From: a virus
Taxonomy: Duplodnaviria > Caudoviricetes
Direction: 5' to 3' (one strand)
DNA length: 64,000 bases
IMG/VR virus record: IMGVR_UViG_3300044852_000015
Coordinates: 32,001-96,000 of that record
This document shows positions 54,150 through 63,604 of the stretch, piece by piece; within the stretch, counting starts at the first letter, position 1, and the number at the start of each line of letters is the position of its first letter. The translations under genes and the position numbers were made by a program. The notes under the pieces were generated by a model that saw only the letters and a list, made by a program, of their open reading frames with translations, searched no databases and was not told where the DNA came from.

Positions 54150-54866
54150 TTACATCCTTGGAATTACGACCCCGACTTGGGATTGGTATTTACCGCCACG
54201 GTCTTTGTAAGAGGTTTCACACTCTTCGTCAGACTCAAGGAACAACATCTGCGCTACGCCTTCGTTCGCGTAGATCTTCGCAGGTAGGTTCGTGGTGTTC
54301 GAGAACTCCAGTGTGACGTGTCCTTCCCACTCAGGTTCCAGCGGGGTTACGTTCACGATGATGCCACAACGGGCGTACGTGGACTTACCCAGACAGATGG
54401 TCAACACGTTGCGTGGGATACGGAAGTACTCCACGGTACGAGCCAACACAAACGAGTTAGGCGGAATGATGCACACGTCGCCTTCGAAGTCAACGAAACA
54501 GTCTGGATCGAAGTCCTTGGGGTCAATCTGGGACGAGTTGATGTTGGTGAAGATCTTGAACTCGTTCGCGCAACGCACGTCGTAACCGTACGAGGACGTA
54601 CCGTAGGAGATGATCTTCTGACCGTCACGTTCCCGCACTTGACCGGGTTCAAACGGTTCGATCATCGGTTTGAAACCTTTCACCAGAGGGTGATAAGGTT
54701 TCAGTTTACCCGCCCAGAAACGGTTCTCCAGATCCTGGAGTTGATCAGCCGTGTGGGTGTTACCTTCCCACGCCAGACTGGCGATGTCGCTGCTACCAGA
54801 ACGGGCAGCGATGGAATGGGTTGGAGGCATGGATTTACGGCGAATCCACTTGTCTGGCTTGATCAT
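54150..54866 (-). CDS. dcd: dCTP deaminase
   Basis: [44 protein letters not shown]. Confidence 0.95.
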
Positions 54867-55932: not shown

Positions 55933-55996
55933 AAATGGGTCACCTAGATAAAATAAAATGGGGGCATAAAAGCAGGGGACCAAAGTCCCCCACTAT

Positions 55997-56254
55997 TTAT
56001 ACGTCGTGATACTCGGGGCGTAAGGCCACCCAAGCACCATTACTCCGTGCACAGTGCAACTGTTGCTGAACCACTAGACACTGGTAGTGAGTGCCAGCGA
56101 ACAGTACACCAGTCGCAGTGTGTGGACGGACCTGCCAACGCTTCCAGAACCAGCGGCCCGTACGTTCAACCACGTACTGGATGTGGTGCTGAGCCGCGAG
56201 GTACCCAGGACTTTCCAGCACTGTTGGGTGATCAGTCGCATCCGGAGGTTTCAT
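55997..56254 (-). CDS. Hypothetical protein
   Basis: TGATG coupling; last gene of operon. Confidence 0.6.
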   Translation of the reverse strand: MKPPDATDHPTVLESPGYLAAQHHIQYVVERTGRWFWKRWQVRPHTATGVLFAGTHYQCLVVQQQLHCARSNGAWVALRPEYHDV

Positions 56255-56517
56255 CAATAAGCCGCCATGGTTGAGTGAGAGGTATCGCAGATGGTGACCT
56301 TGACGTGCTTCTGACTGATCAACTGGTAGACTTTACAGTCACCAATGGTCGCAATCAGTTCGTGGTTGGTTGTCAGCGCTTGAGGGTTCGCCAAGTTGGC
56401 CGCACGGATCTCGTCACGCTCAGCCCTAGCCAACATCGCCAGACTGACAACCACCATTCCAACCATCAAGGCGTACAGTCCCCACCATGTACGGAAGTGC
56501 TTCTGCACCCAATTCAC
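56254..56517 (-). CDS. Small membrane-anchored protein
   Basis: N-terminal TM; GTGA overlap. Confidence 0.6.
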   Translation of the reverse strand: MNWVQKHFRTWWGLYALMVGMVVVSLAMLARAERDEIRAANLANPQALTTNHELIATIGDCKVYQLISQKHVKVTICDTSHSTMAAY

Positions 56518-57398
56518 TGACGCACAGCCTTGACATTGGCCGTGATAGCCTTGGTGATAGCGCGCTTGACGTCACGAGCTTCCTTGGGGTCCATGTTGGC
56601 GTGGTAGGCGTTGTTGTACACCACTTGGGCCGCCATGGCGTAGGTGTCGATCGAGAACATTTTGTTGTCGGTAGGGATGCCCGAGTCACCTTTGCTGGTC
56701 AGAGCGAACGGAGTGTAAAGAGGGTTCTCGTTACGATCCTTGGCTTTAGCGAAAGAGGACTCACCGATCTCACCGATCCACAGGCTGTCTTTGTAGTCGT
56801 CAGTGATGTCGCTGCTGATCAGACCCGAACGACCCACGTACAGAATGCCGCCAACTTCCACACGCACGCCGGACTTCATAGTGAAGCCCTGCGATGCCGC
56901 TTCTGCCGCTTCCAGCCAGCTATCGAATTCGACAGTTTTGATGTTGGCGTAATCCGGGTCAACCGCTGCAAAGTTCTTGACGGTCACTTCGGCACCAGAA
57001 CCAGAAACATAACCCACAGCGCGGGTCAGGTTTTCTGCATCGACCATACTGGAGAACTTCTTCACGCCAGTCTTACCGTGAAGCCAGAAGATGACCTCGG
57101 TGTGAGCGTTGGTCACAGTGATGTCGCGAGGCAGACCGAGGCTGGACACAGCATCAGCTTGCATGATCGCCATGACACAATCGCCTTCTTTGAGCAGGTG
57201 TGCGTTTTCCACCGAACCGCCGGTGTTCAAGACTTCAAGCTTGGCGCCAATCTTCTTGGCAATGTCCTTACCGATACCGGTACCCAACGACTCGTAGGCG
57301 CCAGTAGGACCACCAGTACAGAAGGTCAGGTCAGCAGGGGCGGCCAGTGCAACAGTGGATGCCAAAGCGAGGGCCAGGCCAATGAACAACTTTTTCAT
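56514..57398 (-). CDS. TAXI-family TRAP solute-binding-like periplasmic protein
   Basis: Signal peptide MKK...ALA; TGGPTGAY, TGGSVEN..LL, AIMQAD, GSGA. Confidence 0.8.
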   Translation of the reverse strand: MKKLFIGLALALASTVALAAPADLTFCTGGPTGAYESLGTGIGKDIAKKIGAKLEVLNTGGSVENAHLLKEGDCVMAIMQADAVSSLGLPRDITVTNAHTEVIFWLHGKTGVKKFSSMVDAENLTRAVGYVSGSGAEVTVKNFAAVDPDYANIKTVEFDSWLEAAEAASQGFTMKSGVRVEVGGILYVGRSGLISSDITDDYKDSLWIGEIGESSFAKAKDRNENPLYTPFALTSKGDSGIPTDNKMFSIDTYAMAAQVVYNNAYHANMDPKEARDVKRAITKAITANVKAVRQ

Positions 57399-58165
57399 GC
57401 TTTTACTCCAACGGGTTTTTGGTTTGTGTTATTAGAGGATGTTACTTTCAACTCAGCTTTCCACTGTCCGTTCTCGACCCAGAGTAAGATGAGCATCATG
57501 CTGTTGCGGATCAGGGTTGGTGTGTGACCCGTGTTCCAAGAGATACCCTCAAAGAACGTCAGGGTGAAGTTTCCATCGTAGACACGCACCAACAGCGAGT
57601 TGATCCTATCGCGATCAAAGTCACCCTCTTCCAGCTTCAAGTGGAAGTCATCACGAAGCGTTACATCCACAGCGTGATGGGTGTGATCCACCGAAATGAC
57701 TTTGTAGGGTTCCGACACGACATCGAAAGTTACCAAGGTCTGGATGGTAAAGTGTGGCTCTTCACGAGTCCCACTGAAACCAACACTGCGGATACCGAAG
57801 CTCAGATCACTCTCGGGTTCCTTCAGGAGCTGGCGAACGCGATCAGCCATCGGTCCCGTGGGTTTGAAACGACCAGTGAGTCTGTTCTCAGACACACCAC
57901 CCGCCACGATCATACCGCAGACCCGATCCTCGTACACAGCCGCTGCACGGTGGACTACGTCGCTGTACCCTAGATTATCGACGTTGGGTGTACCGAACTC
58001 CACGTAGATCGGAGTACGCTTGAGCAGTTCCTGGAACTTACCCTCAACCTGTTTAGGATCGTAGACCCGCCCGCTGGGGGCTGGTTTACCGAGGGTTGCC
58101 AAAGTGACGTAGTAATAACCGTCAGCATCAGGCGTGAGGTCTTTCACTGGATTATGTCCAATCAT
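57395..58165 (-). CDS. Prohead protease (phiKZ gp175/S80-like) paralog, catalytic residues altered, with C-terminal extension
   Basis: GYYYVTL, SGRVY, VEFGTP, EDRVC, KPTGP, FGIRS, VTFDVVSEP. Confidence 0.7.
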   Translation of the reverse strand: MIGHNPVKDLTPDADGYYYVTLATLGKPAPSGRVYDPKQVEGKFQELLKRTPIYVEFGTPNVDNLGYSDVVHRAAAVYEDRVCGMIVAGGVSENRLTGRFKPTGPMADRVRQLLKEPESDLSFGIRSVGFSGTREEPHFTIQTLVTFDVVSEPYKVISVDHTHHAVDVTLRDDFHLKLEEGDFDRDRINSLLVRVYDGNFTLTFFEGISWNTGHTPTLIRNSMMLILLWVENGQWKAELKVTSSNNTNQKPVGVKA

Positions 58166-58666
58166 ACTGGAACTCTTGGTGAAATGTCTGAAAGGTCTGA
58201 TAGCACCAAGTCCCACGTTACAATGGCCTTGAGATCAGTACGGTCAGCCGGGTTGGCAAACCCTCGCATCCTGAAAGACAGGGTATCGTCTTCAGTGGCT
58301 AAAATGTCTTGCACTAACGAGGCCATAGGACCCAGCGGTTTGAAGTGGGCGATCAGATGTTCGTCTCTACCACGTATGTCGGCACCCCCACGGATCAGTA
58401 CACCACACACCCGCCGTTCGTCAACAATAGTGCGGCGACTATGCGCTTCCAGTTGAGTCAGCATAGCGACTCGCGGCTGCCCGTATTCAACGTACATCGG
58501 AGCACCACGGTTCAAGCGATCAATGAACGCTTTGCGCACCGTGTCCGGCTGATACGTGAAACCGCCACGCTCGGGTGTTCCTAATTGACCGAGGACTACA
58601 CGGTAGTAACCGTCTTCGTCTACCTTCAGATGATTGACTTTGTTGTCACCAATCATACTGGAACTC
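58158..58666. repeat. 18-bp direct repeat CCAATCATACTGGAACTC at 58158-58175 and 58649-58666
   Basis: Exact repeat spanning the RBS/start of both protease-like genes. Confidence 0.85.
58162..58656 (-). CDS. Prohead protease (gp175/S80-like) paralog, catalytic residues altered
   Basis: GYYRVVLG, VEYGQP, ERRVC, KPLGP, FRMRG, VTWDLV. Confidence 0.7.
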   Translation of the reverse strand: MIGDNKVNHLKVDEDGYYRVVLGQLGTPERGGFTYQPDTVRKAFIDRLNRGAPMYVEYGQPRVAMLTQLEAHSRRTIVDERRVCGVLIRGGADIRGRDEHLIAHFKPLGPMASLVQDILATEDDTLSFRMRGFANPADRTDLKAIVTWDLVLSDLSDISPRVPV

Positions 58667-58820
58667 CTCGCTCGCGACAGGCTTGCTTGTATTCTTCGAT
58701 CATCGTGAAGAGGTTGTTCTTGTGGCGGATGTTCAGGCGGCGACAACGCTTGACCTTGGCCTCCTCTTTCTTAATGGCCGCTTGCATCTTTGCAAGTACT
58801 TCTTCTTGATCGTCTGGCAC
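58653..58820 (-). CDS. Small helical protein, 55 aa
   Basis: AAGGA RBS, GTG start, MPDDQEEVLAKMQAAIKK...GVPV; ATGA-coupled; translated by hand. Confidence 0.6.
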   Translation of the reverse strand: MPDDQEEVLAKMQAAIKKEEAKVKRCRRLNIRHKNNLFTMIEEYKQACRERGVPV

Positions 58821-58858
58821 GGTGAAATCCTTATTAAGATCAACTACGTGATACCCTT

Positions 58859-58878
58859 ACATAATTTGTACTTGAGAT
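58859..58878 (-). promoter_or_regulatory. Degenerate early-promoter-like motif
   Basis: Minus strand ATCTCAAGTACAAATTATGT; same spacing as the other copies. Confidence 0.4.
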
Positions 58879-58937
58879 ATTTTTGAATACAGATCGCGGC
58901 ATAAAGCCTAGGACTCACGCCCTAGGCGATACACGGG

Positions 58938-59597
58938 TTACTCTGGAAGTGTGAACAGTGTGTTAGCATCCGGAATAGTTGGCAGCTCAGCCAGAGTGGT
59001 GGCCGCAGTCACTCCGTCTTTAAAGCCCCAGATCTTCTGGTAGCCGATCGTGACCGCGCGGAAGGCAGCATCGGCCATCGCGACCAGTTCTTCAGCCGAC
59101 AACACCACACCGACGTTCTCGTACACGCGGAAGGGGAAGTTCATTGTTCCACCAGCAGCCACAACTTCCTTAGCGATAATGCGCAGGGAGGTGAGGTTAG
59201 ACCGATCGTCGTTACGGATCTGGACGTGGTACGTGCCCTCATTGAAGTCATAGGCGAAACCCCGTTCGAATTGACTGATGCGTAAGTCTTCAGCCGCACG
59301 TTGTAGTTCAGCTTTGCGGGTGGTCAACTGATCAGTAAGTTCTGATTGGGTGTAAGTCCGTTCGATCCAGCTTTGATGCCACTTACCCCCGATCAATTGT
59401 GGTGGACCGGCAACGACAACGTCATTCACTGGAATCGGTGTATCGTAAACGGGTTGGTACCCGAGTGCGACCATTTCCTCTACTTGAGGTTCTGTTGTGA
59501 AGCTGACCGTAGCTTTGAGTCGGTTACGGATCTGGTCCAATGTGATTGGATAGTCGCCAGTAGCAACCTCGATAAAACGAGTGTATTGAATTGACAT
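58938..59597 (-). CDS. Tail fibre assembly-like protein (DUF4376-like)
   Basis: YPITL, P....W.Q.W, C-terminal DUF4376-like pattern; follows the tail paralog array. Confidence 0.65.
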   Translation of the reverse strand: MSIQYTRFIEVATGDYPITLDQIRNRLKATVSFTTEPQVEEMVALGYQPVYDTPIPVNDVVVAGPPQLIGGKWHQSWIERTYTQSELTDQLTTRKAELQRAAEDLRISQFERGFAYDFNEGTYHVQIRNDDRSNLTSLRIIAKEVVAAGGTMNFPFRVYENVGVVLSAEELVAMADAAFRAVTIGYQKIWGFKDGVTAATTLAELPTIPDANTLFTLPE

Positions 59598-59609: not shown

Positions 59610-60533
59610 TTAAAAGACGAGTTCCAGAATTGGACGCCATGCGGTATAGATGTACGAGTAGGCCAAGGCTGCCGTCAGAACAGGGTCGGGGTTGACTGAG
59701 CCGTCCGGTCGGAAGATTATGGTATCTCCAGCCGTGGTAGTGACGTCTTTAGTGTACGCTTGACAGTTGGCCACCCACGTAAGGTCATCTAGTTGGATGG
59801 GGTTCACCTGACTGGTGCGCGTGAGGTACAGTGGTGAGATAATCTGATCGTATTCACCACCCACTTGGTTAGCCGGCACAGAACTGGCCGTCAAAGACCC
59901 TACACGGGTACCTGGGAGTCGAACCAAGAAGGTGTCTGCATTCTTCTGAACCGTGACGCCTTGTTGGATCGTTCCGTACGTAGATTTAGCTGCTGCTGAC
60001 CACGTACTCGGGTCATCCTTACCGTACACCAGACCCAATTGATACAGTGTCGCCCACGAAAGGGCGGTAGAGCCGTTCGCAATAGCCCGATCGGGAATGA
60101 ACAGGATCTTCCCGTTGTACACGATTTTAATCCACCAACTGGCAGCGTAGCCACCAGCAGCAGCGTACTGTGCCCCCAGTCCCACGATCTGACACAACTC
60201 GGCTGGACCGAACAAGTCCTCCACGGCTATACGACCAAATGTACCGTAGCTCCAGTCGCCTCGTAGGAGCTTCTGTGGACCCGGACCGGTATACGGCATG
60301 TACGCCAACGCCATATCAGCAGAGAGTGTTTCTTCACCGTTAGCGACCACACCGATGCGGTAGTGGTACGTTTGGTTACGAACGGCTGTGGCGTCTAGGT
60401 AGCTAAAAGTACCAGCAGCCACCTCAGCCAACGGAGTCGGTAAGGCGGTATCGAGAATCACGGTATCGGATCGGTAAACCCGAAACTTATCCACCGTGAT
60501 ATTTCGATCAACCCAATTAATGACGAGTGCCAT
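59610..60533 (-). CDS. Virion tail protein, phiKZ gp131-135-like family, N-terminal FN3-like domain
   Basis: GPGPQ.L..G....G.FG, W.K....GKILFIP, W..LY..GLVYG, WRPILEL. Confidence 0.75.
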   Translation of the reverse strand: MALVINWVDRNITVDKFRVYRSDTVILDTALPTPLAEVAAGTFSYLDATAVRNQTYHYRIGVVANGEETLSADMALAYMPYTGPGPQKLLRGDWSYGTFGRIAVEDLFGPAELCQIVGLGAQYAAAGGYAASWWIKIVYNGKILFIPDRAIANGSTALSWATLYQLGLVYGKDDPSTWSAAAKSTYGTIQQGVTVQKNADTFLVRLPGTRVGSLTASSVPANQVGGEYDQIISPLYLTRTSQVNPIQLDDLTWVANCQAYTKDVTTTAGDTIIFRPDGSVNPDPVLTAALAYSYIYTAWRPILELVF

Positions 60534-60542
60534 GATAACTCC

Positions 60543-61469
60543 TTAGGTCAGGATGAGTTCGAATACTGGGAGCCAACCAGGGGCCGGGTTGTAGCCCTGT
60601 TGGACGTTAGTGGCGACCATGGCGTCCATGTATGAGCCGTGACCGTTGGTGATGTTGTAGCCAGATGAGCTGAAGTGCTGCGTGAACGTGGAGTTCATCC
60701 ACGTACCTGGTGCTAGGTCGTTCCACTTGTCTTGTGGTGCCCAAGTATTTAGGGTATTACCCAAACGACCCAGCAGGTCTTCTATTTCGCTCGACTGTTG
60801 ATCGGCCTGACCGAGGGTCACGTAGGAGGACGTGGGTTTGTCACTGGCTTTGAATGACCGAACGATGAATTGGTACGCGCCAATCGAGAAGACTTTGTAC
60901 TGGTTGGCGGGTGCTGTGTAACCGGCAATAAGAACGCCGCTAGGAGCGAACGGGAACGCACCGTTGTCGTTGGTCCCGAAGACAAACCCAGCGTTGTAAA
61001 GTTGGCTAAAGGTGGGGCTTCCGAAGCTGTAGTTCGGGACGTAAAGGATCTTCCCTTTACGGACAAACTTGTGCCACAAGGTGACGTTACCATCGGAACC
61101 GGGACTTGAGTAGGGGTACACGGCGTTCAACAATGACGGTAAGGTCATTTGGACGGCGGGTACGGTCCCGAAGTAACCCAAGTTCCAATCACCACGTAAC
61201 AAGGTTTGTGAACCAGGTCCCGAATCAGGGAAATGTCCCTGAATCAATTGTTGACTCAACAGTTCCTGACCTGAGCGAACGTGACCCACGATGTAGTAGT
61301 AGACCGTGTTACGCACCGCCGCGGTATCGGCGTACGACGTAGCAGAACCTGCAATCGTTGCCAACGGGGTGGGGAGTGCGTTAGGGTCAATCGGGTTCGC
61401 AGAACGGTAAACGTTGATGCTCTCTGCGAGGGCCGCGTTAGCTGACCCCCAAGTGAGTGTAACTGACAT
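60543..61469 (-). CDS. Virion tail protein, gp131-135-like paralog
   Basis: Same motifs; ends GWLPVFEL. Confidence 0.75.
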   Translation of the reverse strand: MSVTLTWGSANAALAESINVYRSANPIDPNALPTPLATIAGSATSYADTAAVRNTVYYYIVGHVRSGQELLSQQLIQGHFPDSGPGSQTLLRGDWNLGYFGTVPAVQMTLPSLLNAVYPYSSPGSDGNVTLWHKFVRKGKILYVPNYSFGSPTFSQLYNAGFVFGTNDNGAFPFAPSGVLIAGYTAPANQYKVFSIGAYQFIVRSFKASDKPTSSYVTLGQADQQSSEIEDLLGRLGNTLNTWAPQDKWNDLAPGTWMNSTFTQHFSSSGYNITNGHGSYMDAMVATNVQQGYNPAPGWLPVFELILT

Positions 61470-61479
61470 AACCTACTCC

Positions 61480-62415
61480 TTACACCGCAGCCGGTTCAAT
61501 GAGTTCCAACACAGGCCACCATGCAACAGTACCAGTGTAAGCCAAGTAGTTTCGTTGGGCGAGGCTGGCTCGAGTGGCCCCGGCTGACCCTCGCAACAAG
61601 ATGTTTCCACTGGCGGCGTTAGTGACTTTTTCCTGCACTGCCGAATAGGTACCGCCGGTCAGTGTCGCCACTGCAATGTTCGCCCGGTTAGCCATACGCT
61701 GCACAGCAGGCACTAGGTTACAAAGAGGGTAAACCAAATCGTCCCATTCACAAGTGAATGTTTCTGTCGGTTCGGGGACCGTCGCGGCGGCTGGAAATAC
61801 GTTGTAGTCGTCATTGTAACCACGCATCAAACGCACGCGGTATTGGTCAGGTCCGATGGTAACTTTAGCCCCTTGGTTAACGTTAGCACCAGCGTTGTAC
61901 GGTCCGTTATCGTCCGAACCGAACACGATCCCGGCGTTGTACATTTGTTGCCAGGTAAGGCTGCCGGCGACCGCACCTTCTGGGATGAACAACACCTTCC
62001 CGTTACGGGCATACTTATGCCACTTTGGACTAACCGTGGAGACTGTACCTGACGCGAAGTTCACCGCTGTACGCAGGGCGTTGATGTTGATGAACGAGGC
62101 CGATGGAATAGTGCCAAAGTAACCATAGTTGTAGTCACCCACTTGCAGTGCGTTGGGTCCCGCGCCACGACGAGGCACTACGGTGATCGGGTAGTTCGGA
62201 GACACCGTACGGTCTGTTGCCGAGATCGTTTCAAACACGTAGTAGTACGTGGTGCCACGGGTCACGTTGGTATCATTGTAAGTGGTTTCACCGGCTGTCA
62301 AAGAAACAATCGGTGAGGACAGTGCAGCGCGATCCAGTGGAGCCAAGCCACGGTAGATGTTCACCGTAATGGCAGTGGCACCGTTGGGGTTGGTCCATGA
62401 CAATTTATTGTACAT
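61480..62415 (-). CDS. Virion tail protein, gp131-135-like paralog
   Basis: Same motifs; ends WWPVLEL. Confidence 0.75.
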   Translation of the reverse strand: MYNKLSWTNPNGATAITVNIYRGLAPLDRAALSSPIVSLTAGETTYNDTNVTRGTTYYYVFETISATDRTVSPNYPITVVPRRGAGPNALQVGDYNYGYFGTIPSASFININALRTAVNFASGTVSTVSPKWHKYARNGKVLFIPEGAVAGSLTWQQMYNAGIVFGSDDNGPYNAGANVNQGAKVTIGPDQYRVRLMRGYNDDYNVFPAAATVPEPTETFTCEWDDLVYPLCNLVPAVQRMANRANIAVATLTGGTYSAVQEKVTNAASGNILLRGSAGATRASLAQRNYLAYTGTVAWWPVLELIEPAAV

Positions 62416-62425
62416 TTAAAGCTCC

Positions 62426-63604
62426 TTACGGGTTATTAGTACCGCTAATACTGAAAGCGTTCAAGGCTGCGAGGCTGTATACAACATTCACAGGGTCAGC
62501 GACCAAGTCAGTCGGTGTCGCGGAGATACTAAAGGCGTTCAACCGTGCAATTTCATAAACCACATTCGCTGGGTCGGAGACTAGGTCAGACGGTGCTGCC
62601 GTGATATTGAACGGGTTCAGTCTCACGTTGGCACTGCCAACCACGTTGACTGGGTTCAACACTCCACCCGGATAGGTGGGGTCGATTATCACAGGTTGCT
62701 TCGTATTAACCGAAGACGTACCAATCAAGTTCACTGGGTTTAGCAGAGGGGGCGGGGTGCCATCAGGGGCTTGTGCCTGCTGTTGGAAAAGAATCGACGG
62801 AGGTTGTGGGGTGGCGGAGATACCCACGGTAACGCCCTGAGGATTCAACAGTGCATCCATCGGCAACAGTTCCAATATGGGTCGCCAAGCAGCATCCGTG
62901 TTGCCCGCATAGGTCTTCACGTTACTCGCACTACCGATGACCGCATAGACCGTGTATGTGGCACCTCGACTGTTAGCCTTGTTAACGTCCGTGGCTTGAG
63001 TCTCTTGGGTCCACGAAGCCATCGTACCACCCACACTGAGTGCACTAGCAGCTTGAGCATCCCACTTATCGGCGATGTTACCGTTACCCGACGTACAGAC
63101 TCGACCCAACAGTTGTTGCCATTCGCTGTTCGACGATTGTGGGTAAGCATCCAGTCCGGCACCCGGATAGGTGGGGTCTGGCCAACCCGTCATCAATCGG
63201 GGAATGAAGCCCCACGTAATCGGACCCTCCACCTTCGTGATCACGTTGTGTTGCCACGCTGCTGGCGTCGCCGGGTAAGCACCGTTCGACTTGGTCCCGT
63301 AAACGAGACCTGCCCCGTAGATGTCGTTCCAACTGATGAAGTTCTTAAGCTGCTGGTTCGGGACGTAAAGGATCTTCCCGTTGTAAGCAAACTTAAACCA
63401 GTACAGCCCTGCGGTGAAGCAGTCAACACCGAAGTTAGTGAAGTTCAACAACCGACCCAGTTCCAACGCACCAAACAATTCAGTGGTTGTTGTGGTTCCG
63501 AAGTACCCTAAAGTAAGGGTGCCGTATTTCAAAGTTTTGGGGCCAGGGCCAGAGGAGCCGTAATAGCTCCCTACTGGGGCTTTCCCAAGCATCATTTCTA
63601 ACAT
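62426..63604 (-). CDS. Virion tail protein, gp131-135-like paralog with C-terminal repeats
   Basis: MLEMM..GPGPKTL..GYFG, WRPILEL, then NP.N.V repeats. Confidence 0.75.
   Translation of the reverse strand: MLEMMLGKAPVGSYYGSSGPGPKTLKYGTLTLGYFGTTTTTELFGALELGRLLNFTNFGVDCFTAGLYWFKFAYNGKILYVPNQQLKNFISWNDIYGAGLVYGTKSNGAYPATPAAWQHNVITKVEGPITWGFIPRLMTGWPDPTYPGAGLDAYPQSSNSEWQQLLGRVCTSGNGNIADKWDAQAASALSVGGTMASWTQETQATDVNKANSRGATYTVYAVIGSASNVKTYAGNTDAAWRPILELLPMDALLNPQGVTVGISATPQPPSILFQQQAQAPDGTPPPLLNPVNLIGTSSVNTKQPVIIDPTYPGGVLNPVNVVGSANVRLNPFNITAAPSDLVSDPANVVYEIARLNAFSISATPTDLVADPVNVVYSLAALNAFSISGTNNP

What the first reader, a model, noticed from the sequence alone, without database searches (positions are those of the whole stretch)
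57395..58656. Tandem catalytically dead prohead-protease paralogs: candidate immune decoys
Seen: two adjacent paralogs carry the full motif series of phiKZ gp175 / T4 gp21-type head maturation proteases (GYY..LG, E.G.P, E..VC, KP.GP, F..R[SG], TW/FD.V). In both, the catalytic His of GE.GHP is replaced (EFGTP, EYGQP) and the catalytic Ser of FSIRS is replaced (FGIRS, FRMRG), by different substitutions, while the reading frames stay intact. They sit in an accessory operon behind an early-like promoter, not among head genes. Known: conserved virion-assembly proteins are common triggers for bacterial immune sensors. Inference: these are pseudoproteases retained for binding. They may act as decoys for a protease-sensing defence system, inhibit a competing phage's protease, or time this phage's own head maturation.
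Basis: partly seen in the sequence, partly recalled or inferred. Interest (0 to 1): 0.85.

Follow-up and report, generated by a model that had tools for sequence, protein, structure and literature searches.

The report
Dead copies of phage head protease
A giant nucleus-forming phage carries two adjacent, intact but catalytically dead copies of its head-maturation protease; such copies were first reported in giant phages in 2017, they are kept by selection, and their job is still unknown.

Summary
Window 58162-58656(-) (164 aa) and 57395-58165(-) (256 aa) both match Pfam Peptidase_S80 above threshold. The modelled N-domain of the longer one matches T4 gp21. Catalytic His is replaced by Gln/Thr and catalytic Ser by Arg/Gly; the Asp is kept. 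The phage's real S80 protease lies about 110 kb away.

This is not a new kind. Ali et al. 2017 (PMC5694885) described diverged, truncated, presumably inactive prohead-protease paralogues in giant phages (SPN3US gp117 and others), some in two copies. The scan has also found such copies on other DNA (e1-5378783, e1-5495969).

New here:
- In the family, Ser is Gly in 40 of 48 members and His varies freely, while Asp and Arg are invariant.
- The longer copy is under strong purifying selection (dN/dS 0.08).
- The shorter copy is a cassette between two copies of an 18-bp junction and is absent from the closest relatives.
- Both lie in a six-gene, translationally coupled operon behind a degenerate phiKZ-type early promoter, together with a secreted binding-protein-like gene.

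"Retained for binding" is plausible. The decoy idea is untested, though a 2026 preprint shows that CBASS senses prohead-protease cleavage. Verdict: new member of a known kind, moderate interest.

The parts
58907..58926 (-). GC-rich hairpin (CCTAGG-8 nt-CCTAGG) followed by CTTTATGCCG. This is the genome's standard terminator element and closes the upstream virion-paralogue/DUF4376 genes.
   Evidence: Sequence read. The motif TTATGCC[GC] occurs 42 times in the genome, almost always directly after a hairpin.
58847..58896 (-). Degenerate phiKZ-type early promoter-like site: an AT-rich stretch, then TCTCAAGTA, then the core CAAATTAT at 58861-58868.
   Evidence: Weight matrix from this genome's 12 TATATTAC sites gives 22.6 bits, rank 19 of 22 sites above 12 bits, all on the minus strand. 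The phiKZ/201phi2-1/OBP promoter consensus is listed in PMC7058600, Table 2.
58653..58820 (-). First operon gene: a 55-aa basic, probably helical protein with two Cys. It has no family match.
   Evidence: ORF. No significant Pfam or PHROG hit. A 52-55 aa gene sits at the same position directly before the S80-like gene in L004/L005, L006, L015, L020 and L028, and one gene further upstream in L016-L019; sequence similarity was read in L016, L028 and at the junctions of L004 and L015.
58162..58656 (-). P0002: a 164-aa dead S80-like paralogue (His to Gln, Ser to Arg, Asp kept) consisting of the protease-fold domain only.
   Evidence: Its sister is P0011 (62% identity; SH-aLRT 94-95). It is absent from the closest relatives L028 and L004.
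58649..58666 (-). Upstream copy of the 18-bp junction repeat GAGTTCCAGTATGATTGG (stop of the 55-aa gene and start of P0002).
58158..58175 (-). Downstream copy of the same 18-bp junction repeat (stop of P0002 and start of P0001). The two copies bracket P0002 as a 491-bp cassette.
   Evidence: In L028 and L004 the single junction joins the 55-aa gene directly to the P0001 orthologue.
57710..58165 (-). P0001 N-terminal domain (residues 1-152): dead S80/gp21-fold domain (His to Thr, Ser to Gly, Asp kept).
   Evidence: Pfam hit. AlphaFold2 pLDDT above 90. Foldseek match to 5JBL, T4 gp21. dN/dS 0.085.
57395..57709 (-). P0001 C-terminal domain (residues ~153-256): fold unknown, and no detectable relation to the real protease's C-terminal targeting tail.
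   Evidence: hhalign against live-protease tails gives probability 0.4%. No Pfam hit. Low model confidence. Encoded as a separate 92-aa ORF in L016. dN/dS 0.08.
56514..57398 (-). 294-aa protein with a signal-peptide-like N-terminus and an NMT1_3 (TAXI/solute-binding-protein-like) match. It is translationally coupled to P0001.
   Evidence: PF16868 E 6e-8 and phrog_6856 E 1e-40. 4-nt overlap. A 294-aa NMT1_3 gene follows the S80-like gene (directly, or after one short ORF of 41-92 aa) wherever the contig reaches it: L004/L005, L015, L016, L018, L020 and L028; L006, L017 and L019 end before it.
55997..56517 (-). Two small genes (87 aa with an N-terminal hydrophobic helix; about 86 aa) that end the translationally coupled run.
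   Evidence: ORFs and overlaps. No family match.
55962..55992 (-). Hairpin plus TTATGCCC terminator element that closes the six-gene unit.
   Evidence: (motif at window 55969).

Best explanation
Shown:
- P0001 and P0002 are members of the diverged, catalytically inert prohead-protease paralogue family of giant phages (the SPN3US gp117 group).
- They keep the S80/T4-gp21 fold and the motifs that frame the old active site (E.G.P, KP.GP, F..R, T.D). They have lost the nucleophile Ser, the general-base His and two further residues that are conserved only in live proteases, so they cannot cut.
- The host genome is a chimallin-encoding, phiKZ-like jumbo phage with its own intact S80 protease elsewhere.
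- The pair arose by duplication within this phage lineage. P0002 is a gain/loss cassette bounded by the repeated 18-bp gene junction. P0001 carries an extra C-terminal domain and is held by strong purifying selection.
- Both are the second and third genes of a six-gene, translationally coupled operon with a degenerate early-type promoter upstream.

Inferred:
- They act as binding-only proteins in the cytoplasm before and during head assembly. The most likely ligand is the phage's own S80 protease or peptides that resemble its S/A/G-x-E cleavage sites. This would be a cFLIP-like regulator or site-masking role that keeps proteolysis confined to the prohead.
- The ligand and the effect are not shown.
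For: Identity:
- Pfam PF20034 above cut-off for both genes.
- Structural match to T4 gp21 (5JBL), E 2e-5.
- Best tblastn hits outside the real proteases are the gp117-type genes of Seoulvirus and Erwinia phages (31.9% identity, E 6e-11).
- In the tree, dead and live sequences need only one change of state.

Inactivity:
- The His and Ser columns are replaced. The published triad assignment for SPN3US gp245 is H77/S153/D178 (PMC5694885).
- Family-wide, Ser is Gly in 40 of 48 members and His is any residue. The live-only residues H102 and N148 are also lost. R154 and D177 are invariant in both groups.

Function retained:
- dN/dS is 0.083 (62.5 synonymous against 22.5 non-synonymous differences) versus L028, in both domains.
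- dN/dS is 0.19 versus L004.

Not a virion-targeted protease:
- There is no C-terminal tail with S/A/G-x-E sites. P0001 has none of these sites and P0002 has one, against five in P0007.
- gp117 does not appear in the SPN3US virion tables.

Operon and promoter.

Conserved cassette in relatives.

Genome type: chimallin homologue (E 1e-37) and non-virion RNA polymerase beta subunit homologue (E 5e-104).
Against: - No result identifies a ligand.
- The dead family is not significantly depleted in S/A/G-x-E motifs (z = -1.3), whereas live catalytic domains are (z = -4.4). There is therefore no sequence signature of routine exposure to the active protease.
- P0002 has a bulky Arg at the former nucleophile position, which fits poorly with peptide binding in the old groove.
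- The promoter core is degenerate and no expression data exist, so timing is inferred.
- In this clade the conserved partners are a secreted binding-protein-like gene and small membrane proteins, not head genes. That may point to a role unrelated to proteolysis.
- Genomic contexts differ between lineages: an AAA+ gene in Seoulvirus, DUF8224 in two metagenomic loci, and the region near the RNA polymerase gene in PhiPA3.
Confidence: 0.45

Rival explanations
1. Counter-defence decoy. The dead paralogues protect the phage from host systems that sense prohead-protease activity, for example CBASS CD-NTases with protease-sensitive activation loops. They would do so either by occupying the bait loop without cutting it or by sequestering free protease outside the prohead.
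For: - A 2026 preprint shows that T4 gp21 (same fold superfamily) activates CBASS by cleaving a CD-NTase loop, and that about 24% of CBASS operons carry such loops (PMC12991175).
- The genes are accessory. They are absent from phiKZ, vary from 0 to 2 copies, and P0002 is present or absent between close relatives.
- N-domains are shuffled between relatives. P0011 combines a P0002-type N-domain with a P0006-type C-domain.
- The former His position is hypervariable.
- The locus lies beside a hypervariable region (Kelch, alginate lyase or tail beta-helix genes in relatives) and behind an early-type promoter.
Against: - No direct evidence of any kind.
- The host and its defence systems are unknown.
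- Close relatives show strong purifying selection rather than positive selection.
- The S80 cleavage specificity (x-E) has not been shown to hit any CD-NTase loop.
- The tight coupling to a secreted protein is not explained by this idea.
Confidence: 0.15
2. Operon-specific role unrelated to proteolysis. The protease fold has been reused as an adaptor or oligomeric module. It would work with the 55-aa protein, the secreted solute-binding-protein-like protein and the small membrane proteins of the same operon, for example in envelope remodelling, superinfection exclusion or host takeover.
For: - Six genes are linked by 4-nt overlaps between one promoter-like site and one terminator.
- The order 52-55 aa gene / S80-like gene / 294-aa NMT1_3 gene recurs in the related contigs that reach both ends, across about 30-94% protein identity; some carry an extra short ORF between these genes.
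- No dead-family-specific motif beyond Gly at the former Ser position points to peptide binding.
- P0002 has Arg in the former active site.
Against: - The cassette is confined to this clade. Dead paralogues in Seoulvirus, PhiPA3 and other metagenomic phages have different neighbours.
- P0001 and P0002 have no signal peptide or membrane segment.
- Co-transcription alone does not show a shared function.
Confidence: 0.25
3. Evolutionary relic. The genes are leftovers of a protease duplication or replacement, as Ali et al. 2017 suggested for gp117, with no present function.
For: - P0002 is missing from the two closest relatives with no other visible change to the operon.
- It lacks the C-terminal domain that its sister P0011 has.
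- Branches in the dead family are long (median end branch about 1.0 against about 0.5 for live proteases).
Against: - P0001 has dN/dS 0.08, equal to its neighbour, over both domains.
- The frames are intact in every relative examined.
- The family is old and widespread (49 of about 150 best 50%-identity clusters) yet keeps about ten invariant positions.
- For P0002 the only comparator is saturated (dS about 2; ratio about 0.17), so decay cannot be excluded for that copy alone.
Confidence: 0.08

Closest known systems
Diverged ('cryptic') prohead-protease paralogues of giant phages: SPN3US gp117, Stratton gp135, Kwan gp144, 201phi2-1 gp206, PhiPA3 gp143 (Ali et al. 2017, Front Microbiol 8:2251, PMC5694885)
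   Same: - A second, S80-related gene in a genome that already has a canonical prohead protease.
- It lacks the protease's C-terminal tail and is presumed inactive.
- Some phages have two copies. Tandem pairs are confirmed here in PhiPA3 and pEa_SNUABM_29.
- P0001 hits the gp117-type genes directly and groups with them in the tree.
   Different: - P0001 carries an extra, conserved C-terminal domain of about 100 aa. It is a separate ORF in one relative.
- The genomic context differs: an operon with a secreted NMT1_3-like protein instead of the AAA+ neighbour seen in Seoulvirus.
- Ali et al. aligned a Ser and an Asp in gp117. In the relatives I could read, the Ser column is Ala or Gly.
- Purifying selection and the cassette nature of one copy had not been reported.
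phiKZ gp175 / SPN3US gp245 prohead protease (MEROPS S80, Pfam PF20034)
   Same: Same fold and motif series, with E.G.P, KP.GP, F..R and T.D conserved. The phage's own enzyme, P0007, is 27-28% identical to the two paralogues.
   Different: - The catalytic His and Ser are absent, as are the live-only conserved H102 and N148.
- Two internal loops are shorter.
- There is no C-terminal tail with S/A/G-x-E autocleavage sites ending in Trp.
T4 gp21 prohead core protease (PDB 5JBL) and herpesvirus assemblins
   Same: The only significant structural match of the P0001 model (E 2e-5, TM 0.67). Herpesvirus proteases appear lower in the list.
   Different: Sequence similarity is undetectable by profile search against the PDB, and the paralogues have no catalytic residues.
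Pseudoprotease regulators of active paralogues (for example cFLIP with caspase-8, ClpR in plastid Clp). This is an analogy from general knowledge, not tested here.
   Same: A catalytically dead paralogue retained under selection alongside an active enzyme.
   Different: No heteromer has been shown, and the one co-fold attempt gave no verdict.

Membership tests
Peptidase S80 (phiKZ gp175-type prohead protease), as homologues | Significant match to the family profile PF20034 | tested here: met
   49.6 and 46.5 bits against a cut-off of 23.4. PHROG 7478 and 3014 also hit.
Peptidase S80, as homologues | T4 gp21/assemblin-type fold | tested here: met
   AlphaFold2 N-domain pLDDT above 90. Foldseek match to 5JBL with E 2.2e-5, probability 1.00, TM 0.67. 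Only P0001 was modelled.
Peptidase S80, as active enzymes | Catalytic His (GE.GHP) | tested here: not met
   Thr in P0001 and Gln in P0002. All 104 live sequences have His.
Peptidase S80, as active enzymes | Catalytic Ser (F-S-x-R) | tested here: not met
   Gly in P0001 and Arg in P0002. All 104 live sequences have Ser.
Peptidase S80, as active enzymes | Third triad residue, Asp (T-W/F-D) | tested here: met
   Asp is kept in both genes and in 48 of 48 dead-family members.
Peptidase S80, as active enzymes | C-terminal prohead-targeting tail with S/A/G-x-E autocleavage sites | tested here: not met
   P0002 ends just after the fold. P0001's C-terminal domain is unrelated to live tails (hhalign probability 0.4%). 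P0001 has 0 cleavage-type motifs and P0002 has 1, against 5 in P0007.
Peptidase S80, as active enzymes | Proteolytic activity on head proteins | not testable with these tools
   Needs a biochemical assay.
Giant-phage diverged prohead-protease paralogues (SPN3US gp117 group, Ali 2017) | An extra S80-like gene in a genome that also has a canonical protease | tested here: met
   There are three PF20034 matches in the 238-kb genome. One is canonical at 255.6 bits, about 110 kb from the pair.
Giant-phage diverged prohead-protease paralogues | Direct similarity to, and grouping with, gp117-type genes rather than with live proteases | tested here: met
   tblastn of P0001 hits the SPAsTU/STsAS gp117-type gene (31.9% identity, E 6e-11). 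In the tree, dead sequences form one side of a branch, but support is only 59.
Giant-phage diverged prohead-protease paralogues | Truncated relative to the protease, and not a detected virion protein | tested here: inconclusive
   P0002 is truncated. P0001 is full length through an unrelated domain. Virion presence cannot be tested for this uncultured phage. gp117 is absent from the SPN3US virion tables.
Anti-defence decoy / anti-CBASS protein | Binds a host sensor, or blocks its activation by the phage protease | not testable with these tools
   Only the premise is documented (PMC12991175).

The most novel reading that the evidence does not exclude
The dead S80 paralogues of giant phages are a counter-measure against immune systems that sense prohead-protease activity. 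They would be made before the real protease. They would then either cap the protease-sensitive bait loops of sensors such as CBASS CD-NTases without cutting them, or hold stray protease inactive in the cytoplasm. The variable copy number, the domain shuffling and the free-varying former His position would then reflect an arms race.
Probability: 0.13. Interest if true: 0.85.

Novelty: new member of a known kind. Interest (0 to 1): 0.4.

Why it matters
Dead prohead-protease paralogues are widespread in giant phages: about a third of the best-scoring 50%-identity clusters in my search. Their function is still unknown nine years after the first report, and RefSeq often labels them 'head maturation protease', which is misleading.

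This locus adds three things to what was known:
- clear evidence of purifying selection;
- a family-wide substitution pattern (Ser to Gly, His free to vary, Arg and Asp invariant);
- a natural presence/absence polymorphism of one copy.

Prohead-protease activity is now reported to trigger CBASS. That makes these genes obvious, cheaply testable candidates for regulators that keep protease activity hidden or confined. Culturable phages that carry them are available (PhiPA3, SPN3US, Erwinia phages).

Tried and rejected
- **Co-fold of the protease with the dead paralogue.** P0007 (1-200) with the P0001 N-domain, both supplied as alignments, gave no verdict (score 0.20 against a mark of 0.32). This counts neither for nor against binding.
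- **C-terminal domain.**
  - There was no Pfam hit.
  - There was no relation to live-protease tails.
  - Only two further stand-alone homologues turned up.
  - The AlphaFold2 model of the stand-alone form had pLDDT 51 and was unusable, so no fold search was run.
  - The Atlas search gave only weak leads to P-loop-like fragments. The R-G-x(5)-G-K-S stretch in relatives is not a proper Walker A motif and is absent from P0001.
- **Profile search against PDB sequences.** It found nothing relevant.
- **Depletion of S/A/G-x-E motifs as a sign of exposure to the protease.** Depletion is significant in live catalytic domains (z = -4.4) but not in the dead family (z = -1.3).
- **A general synteny of a large upstream gene, the dead paralogue and a ~335-aa gene across lineages.** The DUF8224 protein and the Seoulvirus AAA+ protein are not similar. 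The 335-aa proteins are not similar to the NMT1_3-like protein. No DUF8224-like gene was found in this genome.
- **Near-identical DNA in the phage collection.** None was found.
- **Careful tree of the dead family.** It did not finish in the time allowed, so the quick tree was used.
- **Literature searches for later work on gp117, PhiPA3 gp143 or 201phi2-1 gp206.** They found no functional study.
Full report
**What is there**

On the minus strand, two genes sit end to end: P0002 (58162-58656, 164 aa) and P0001 (57395-58165, 256 aa). The longer ORFs listed by the ORF finder start inside the upstream genes. The ATG starts are supported by the N-termini of all homologues (MIG.N...) and by the conserved junction sequence.

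Both proteins match Pfam Peptidase_S80 above its curated cut-off (E 3.9e-13 and 3.5e-12). Both also match two PHROG 'head maturation protease' families. They are 37% identical to each other.

An AlphaFold2 model of P0001, built on a 70-row alignment, is confident for residues 1-152 (pLDDT above 90). It is poor for the remaining ~100 residues. The only significant PDB matches are the three chains of T4 gp21 (5JBL; E 2e-5, probability 1.00, TM 0.67). Herpesvirus proteases follow at non-significant scores. The reported homology is therefore real and far beyond chance.

**They are catalytically dead, and a live enzyme exists**

The window is part of a 238-kb viral record with three S80 matches: the pair, and a canonical protease (P0007, 255.6 bits) about 110 kb away, next to a virion structural gene.

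When aligned with P0007 and with Seoulvirus proteases:
- The His of GEYGHP is Thr in P0001 and Gln in P0002.
- The Ser of CFSVRS is Gly in P0001 and Arg in P0002.
- The Asp of TWD is kept in both.

These columns correspond to the published triad of SPN3US gp245 (H77/S153/D178, aligned with the T4 gp21 triad; PMC5694885).

**The genome**

The genome encodes a chimallin homologue (E 1e-37) and a phiKZ gp74-like non-virion RNA polymerase subunit (E 5e-104). It is therefore a nucleus-forming, phiKZ-like jumbo phage. Its protease is closest to those of Xanthomonas jumbo phages, at about 48% identity. No near-identical phage is in the collection.

**This is a known family**

Ali et al. [quoted passage not shown] Their examples were SPN3US gp117, Stratton gp135, Kwan gp144, 201phi2-1 gp206 and PhiPA3 gp143. 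[quoted passage not shown]

My own checks agree:
- P0001's best non-protease hits in the phage collection are exactly these genes in Seoulvirus and Erwinia phages.
- PhiPA3 and pEa_SNUABM_29 each carry a tandem pair plus a live protease, whereas phiKZ has only the live one.
- I found no later functional study.
- RefSeq often labels these genes 'head maturation protease'.

The scan itself has met such genes on other DNA (e1-5378783, e1-5495969).

**Family-wide pattern**

A profile of the pair and their close relatives, searched against 1.84 billion cluster representatives, gave 650 hits. Among the roughly 150 best:
- 103 carry the His-Ser-Asp triad and are about 250 aa long.
- 49 do not, and most of these are 130-185 aa long.

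In the dead group, the Ser column is Gly in 40 of 48 members and Ala in 5. The His column holds almost any residue. Two further positions conserved only in live enzymes (H102 and N148 of P0007) are also lost. E72, G74, P76, R90, P130, G132, F151, R154, T175 and D177 remain near-invariant in both groups.

In a maximum-likelihood tree, dead and live sequences fall on opposite sides of one branch, with weak support (59). This fits one old inactivation rather than repeated decay.

P0002's Arg codon (AGG) is one step from the Gly kept by its sister P0011.

**History of the pair**

- P0001 groups with P0003, P0004 and P0005, and then with P0006 and P0010 (support 99-100).
- P0002 groups with P0011 (support 94-95).
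- The two groups together form one side of a branch, but weakly (37).

The same 18-bp junction (GAGTTCCAGTATGATTGG, holding the stop of one gene and the start of the next) occurs on both sides of P0002. In the closest relatives (L028, 94% protein identity; L004, 69%), the 55-aa gene joins the P0001 orthologue directly through a single copy of that junction. P0002 is thus a 491-bp cassette that has been gained or lost by recombination at the junction.

P0011 combines a P0002-type N-domain (50% identical to P0006) with a P0006-type C-domain (79% identical), which shows domain shuffling. In another relative the C-domain is a separate 92-aa ORF.

**Selection**

Against L028, P0001 shows 62.5 synonymous and 22.5 non-synonymous differences. 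That gives dN/dS 0.083, the same in both domains and similar to the neighbouring gene (0.096). Against L004 the ratio is 0.19. Neutral decay is excluded for P0001. For P0002 the only comparator is saturated (dS about 2; ratio about 0.17), so the evidence there is weak.

**Context**

Six genes are joined by 4-nt start/stop overlaps:
1. the 55-aa basic protein;
2. P0002;
3. P0001;
4. a 294-aa protein with a signal-peptide-like N-terminus and an NMT1_3/TAXI-like match;
5. an 87-aa protein with a hydrophobic helix;
6. an ~86-aa protein.

The unit is bounded by two copies of the genome's standard terminator element, a hairpin followed by TTATGCC[GC] (42 copies in the genome).

Between the upstream terminator and the first gene lies a site resembling the genome's 12 TATATTAC promoters, which carry the phiKZ early consensus (PMC7058600, Table 2). 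A weight matrix gives this site 22.6 bits, rank 19 of 22 sites above 12 bits. Its upstream half matches well and its core is degenerate (CAAATTAT). 'Early-like' is a fair description, but timing is inferred.

The order 52-55 aa gene / S80-like gene / 294-aa NMT1_3 gene, with a dCTP deaminase further on, recurs in the related contigs that reach both ends. Some of them carry an extra short ORF between these genes. The genes upstream vary: virion-paralogue genes here, and Kelch, alginate-lyase or tail beta-helix genes elsewhere.

In other lineages the dead paralogues have different neighbours. These are an AAA+ gene in Seoulvirus, DUF8224 in two metagenomic loci, and the region near the RNA polymerase gene in PhiPA3. 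None of these neighbours is similar to another.

**What they probably do**

Shown:
- a retained fold;
- loss of the catalytic machinery;
- retention of the residues that frame the old active site;
- no prohead-targeting tail;
- purifying selection;
- accessory, variable distribution.

Inferred: a binding-only role. By analogy with other pseudoproteases, I consider the likeliest ligand to be the phage's own S80 protease or its x-E cleavage-site peptides. The proteins would act in the cytoplasm to confine or time proteolysis.

A 2026 preprint shows that T4 gp21 activates CBASS by cutting a CD-NTase loop (PMC12991175).

Points against any protease-centred role:
- The dead family is not significantly depleted in S/A/G-x-E motifs (z = -1.3), unlike live catalytic domains (z = -4.4).
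- P0002 has an Arg at the former nucleophile position.
- The clade-specific coupling is to envelope-directed proteins.

**Verdict**

This is a new member of a known kind, and the family's function is still open.

Noticed in passing
window 56514-57398 (-): A phage-encoded 294-aa protein with a signal-peptide-like N-terminus and an NMT1_3 / TAXI solute-binding-protein-like match (PF16868 E 6e-8; phrog_6856 E 1e-40). A 294-aa NMT1_3 gene follows the dead protease gene (directly, or after one short ORF) in every related contig that extends that far. A periplasmic binding-protein homologue in a jumbo phage is unexplained.
   Followed up: partly
whole genome (G000); e.g. window 58897-58926 and 55962-55992: A hairpin followed by (T)TTATGCC[GC] occurs 42 times and marks most gene-cluster ends. 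It contains TATG, the phiKZ late-promoter core (from memory), so it may be a combined terminator and late start. All 12 TATATTAC early-type promoters, and all 22 weight-matrix hits, lie on the minus strand.
   Followed up: partly
window 59610-63604 (-) and 58938-59597 (-): Four tandem paralogues (307-392 aa) match PHROG 'virion structural protein' families (phrog_1062, phrog_3589), followed by a DUF4376 protein. In related phages this position instead holds Kelch-repeat, alginate-lyase, tail beta-helix or DUF7941 paralogue genes, so it is a hypervariable, probably host-recognition, region.
   Followed up: partly
L007 (Salmonella phage SPAsTU) 1522-2007 and 2019-3779; L008/L013 (Erwinia phage pEa_SNUABM_29): In Seoulvirus phages the gp117-type dead paralogue sits just downstream of a 586-aa AAA+ (HslU/ClpB-like) protein. 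A further weak S80-like ORF (PF20034 E 0.002, below cut-off) sits just upstream of it. This pairs an orphan unfoldase with protease-fold genes.
   Followed up: partly
L016 8468-8746 (P0158); C-terminal parts of P0006, P0011, P0014: In relatives, the C-terminal domain carries a conserved stretch L-E-V-E-V-R-G-x-x-P-H-I-G-K-S that resembles, but does not fit, a Walker A loop. P0001's own C-domain lacks it. The fold could not be modelled with confidence.
   Followed up: partly
phage collection records, e.g. NC_031107, NC_019929, NC_031127, NC_031120: RefSeq annotates the short gp117-type dead paralogues as 'head maturation protease', so these genomes appear to have two proteases.
   Followed up: no
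window 54150-54866 (-): A dCTP deaminase (DCD) gene lies a few genes downstream of the operon. The same order (S80-like gene, then DCD a few genes later) is seen in the relatives L004, L016, L020 and in the more distant L030.
   Followed up: no
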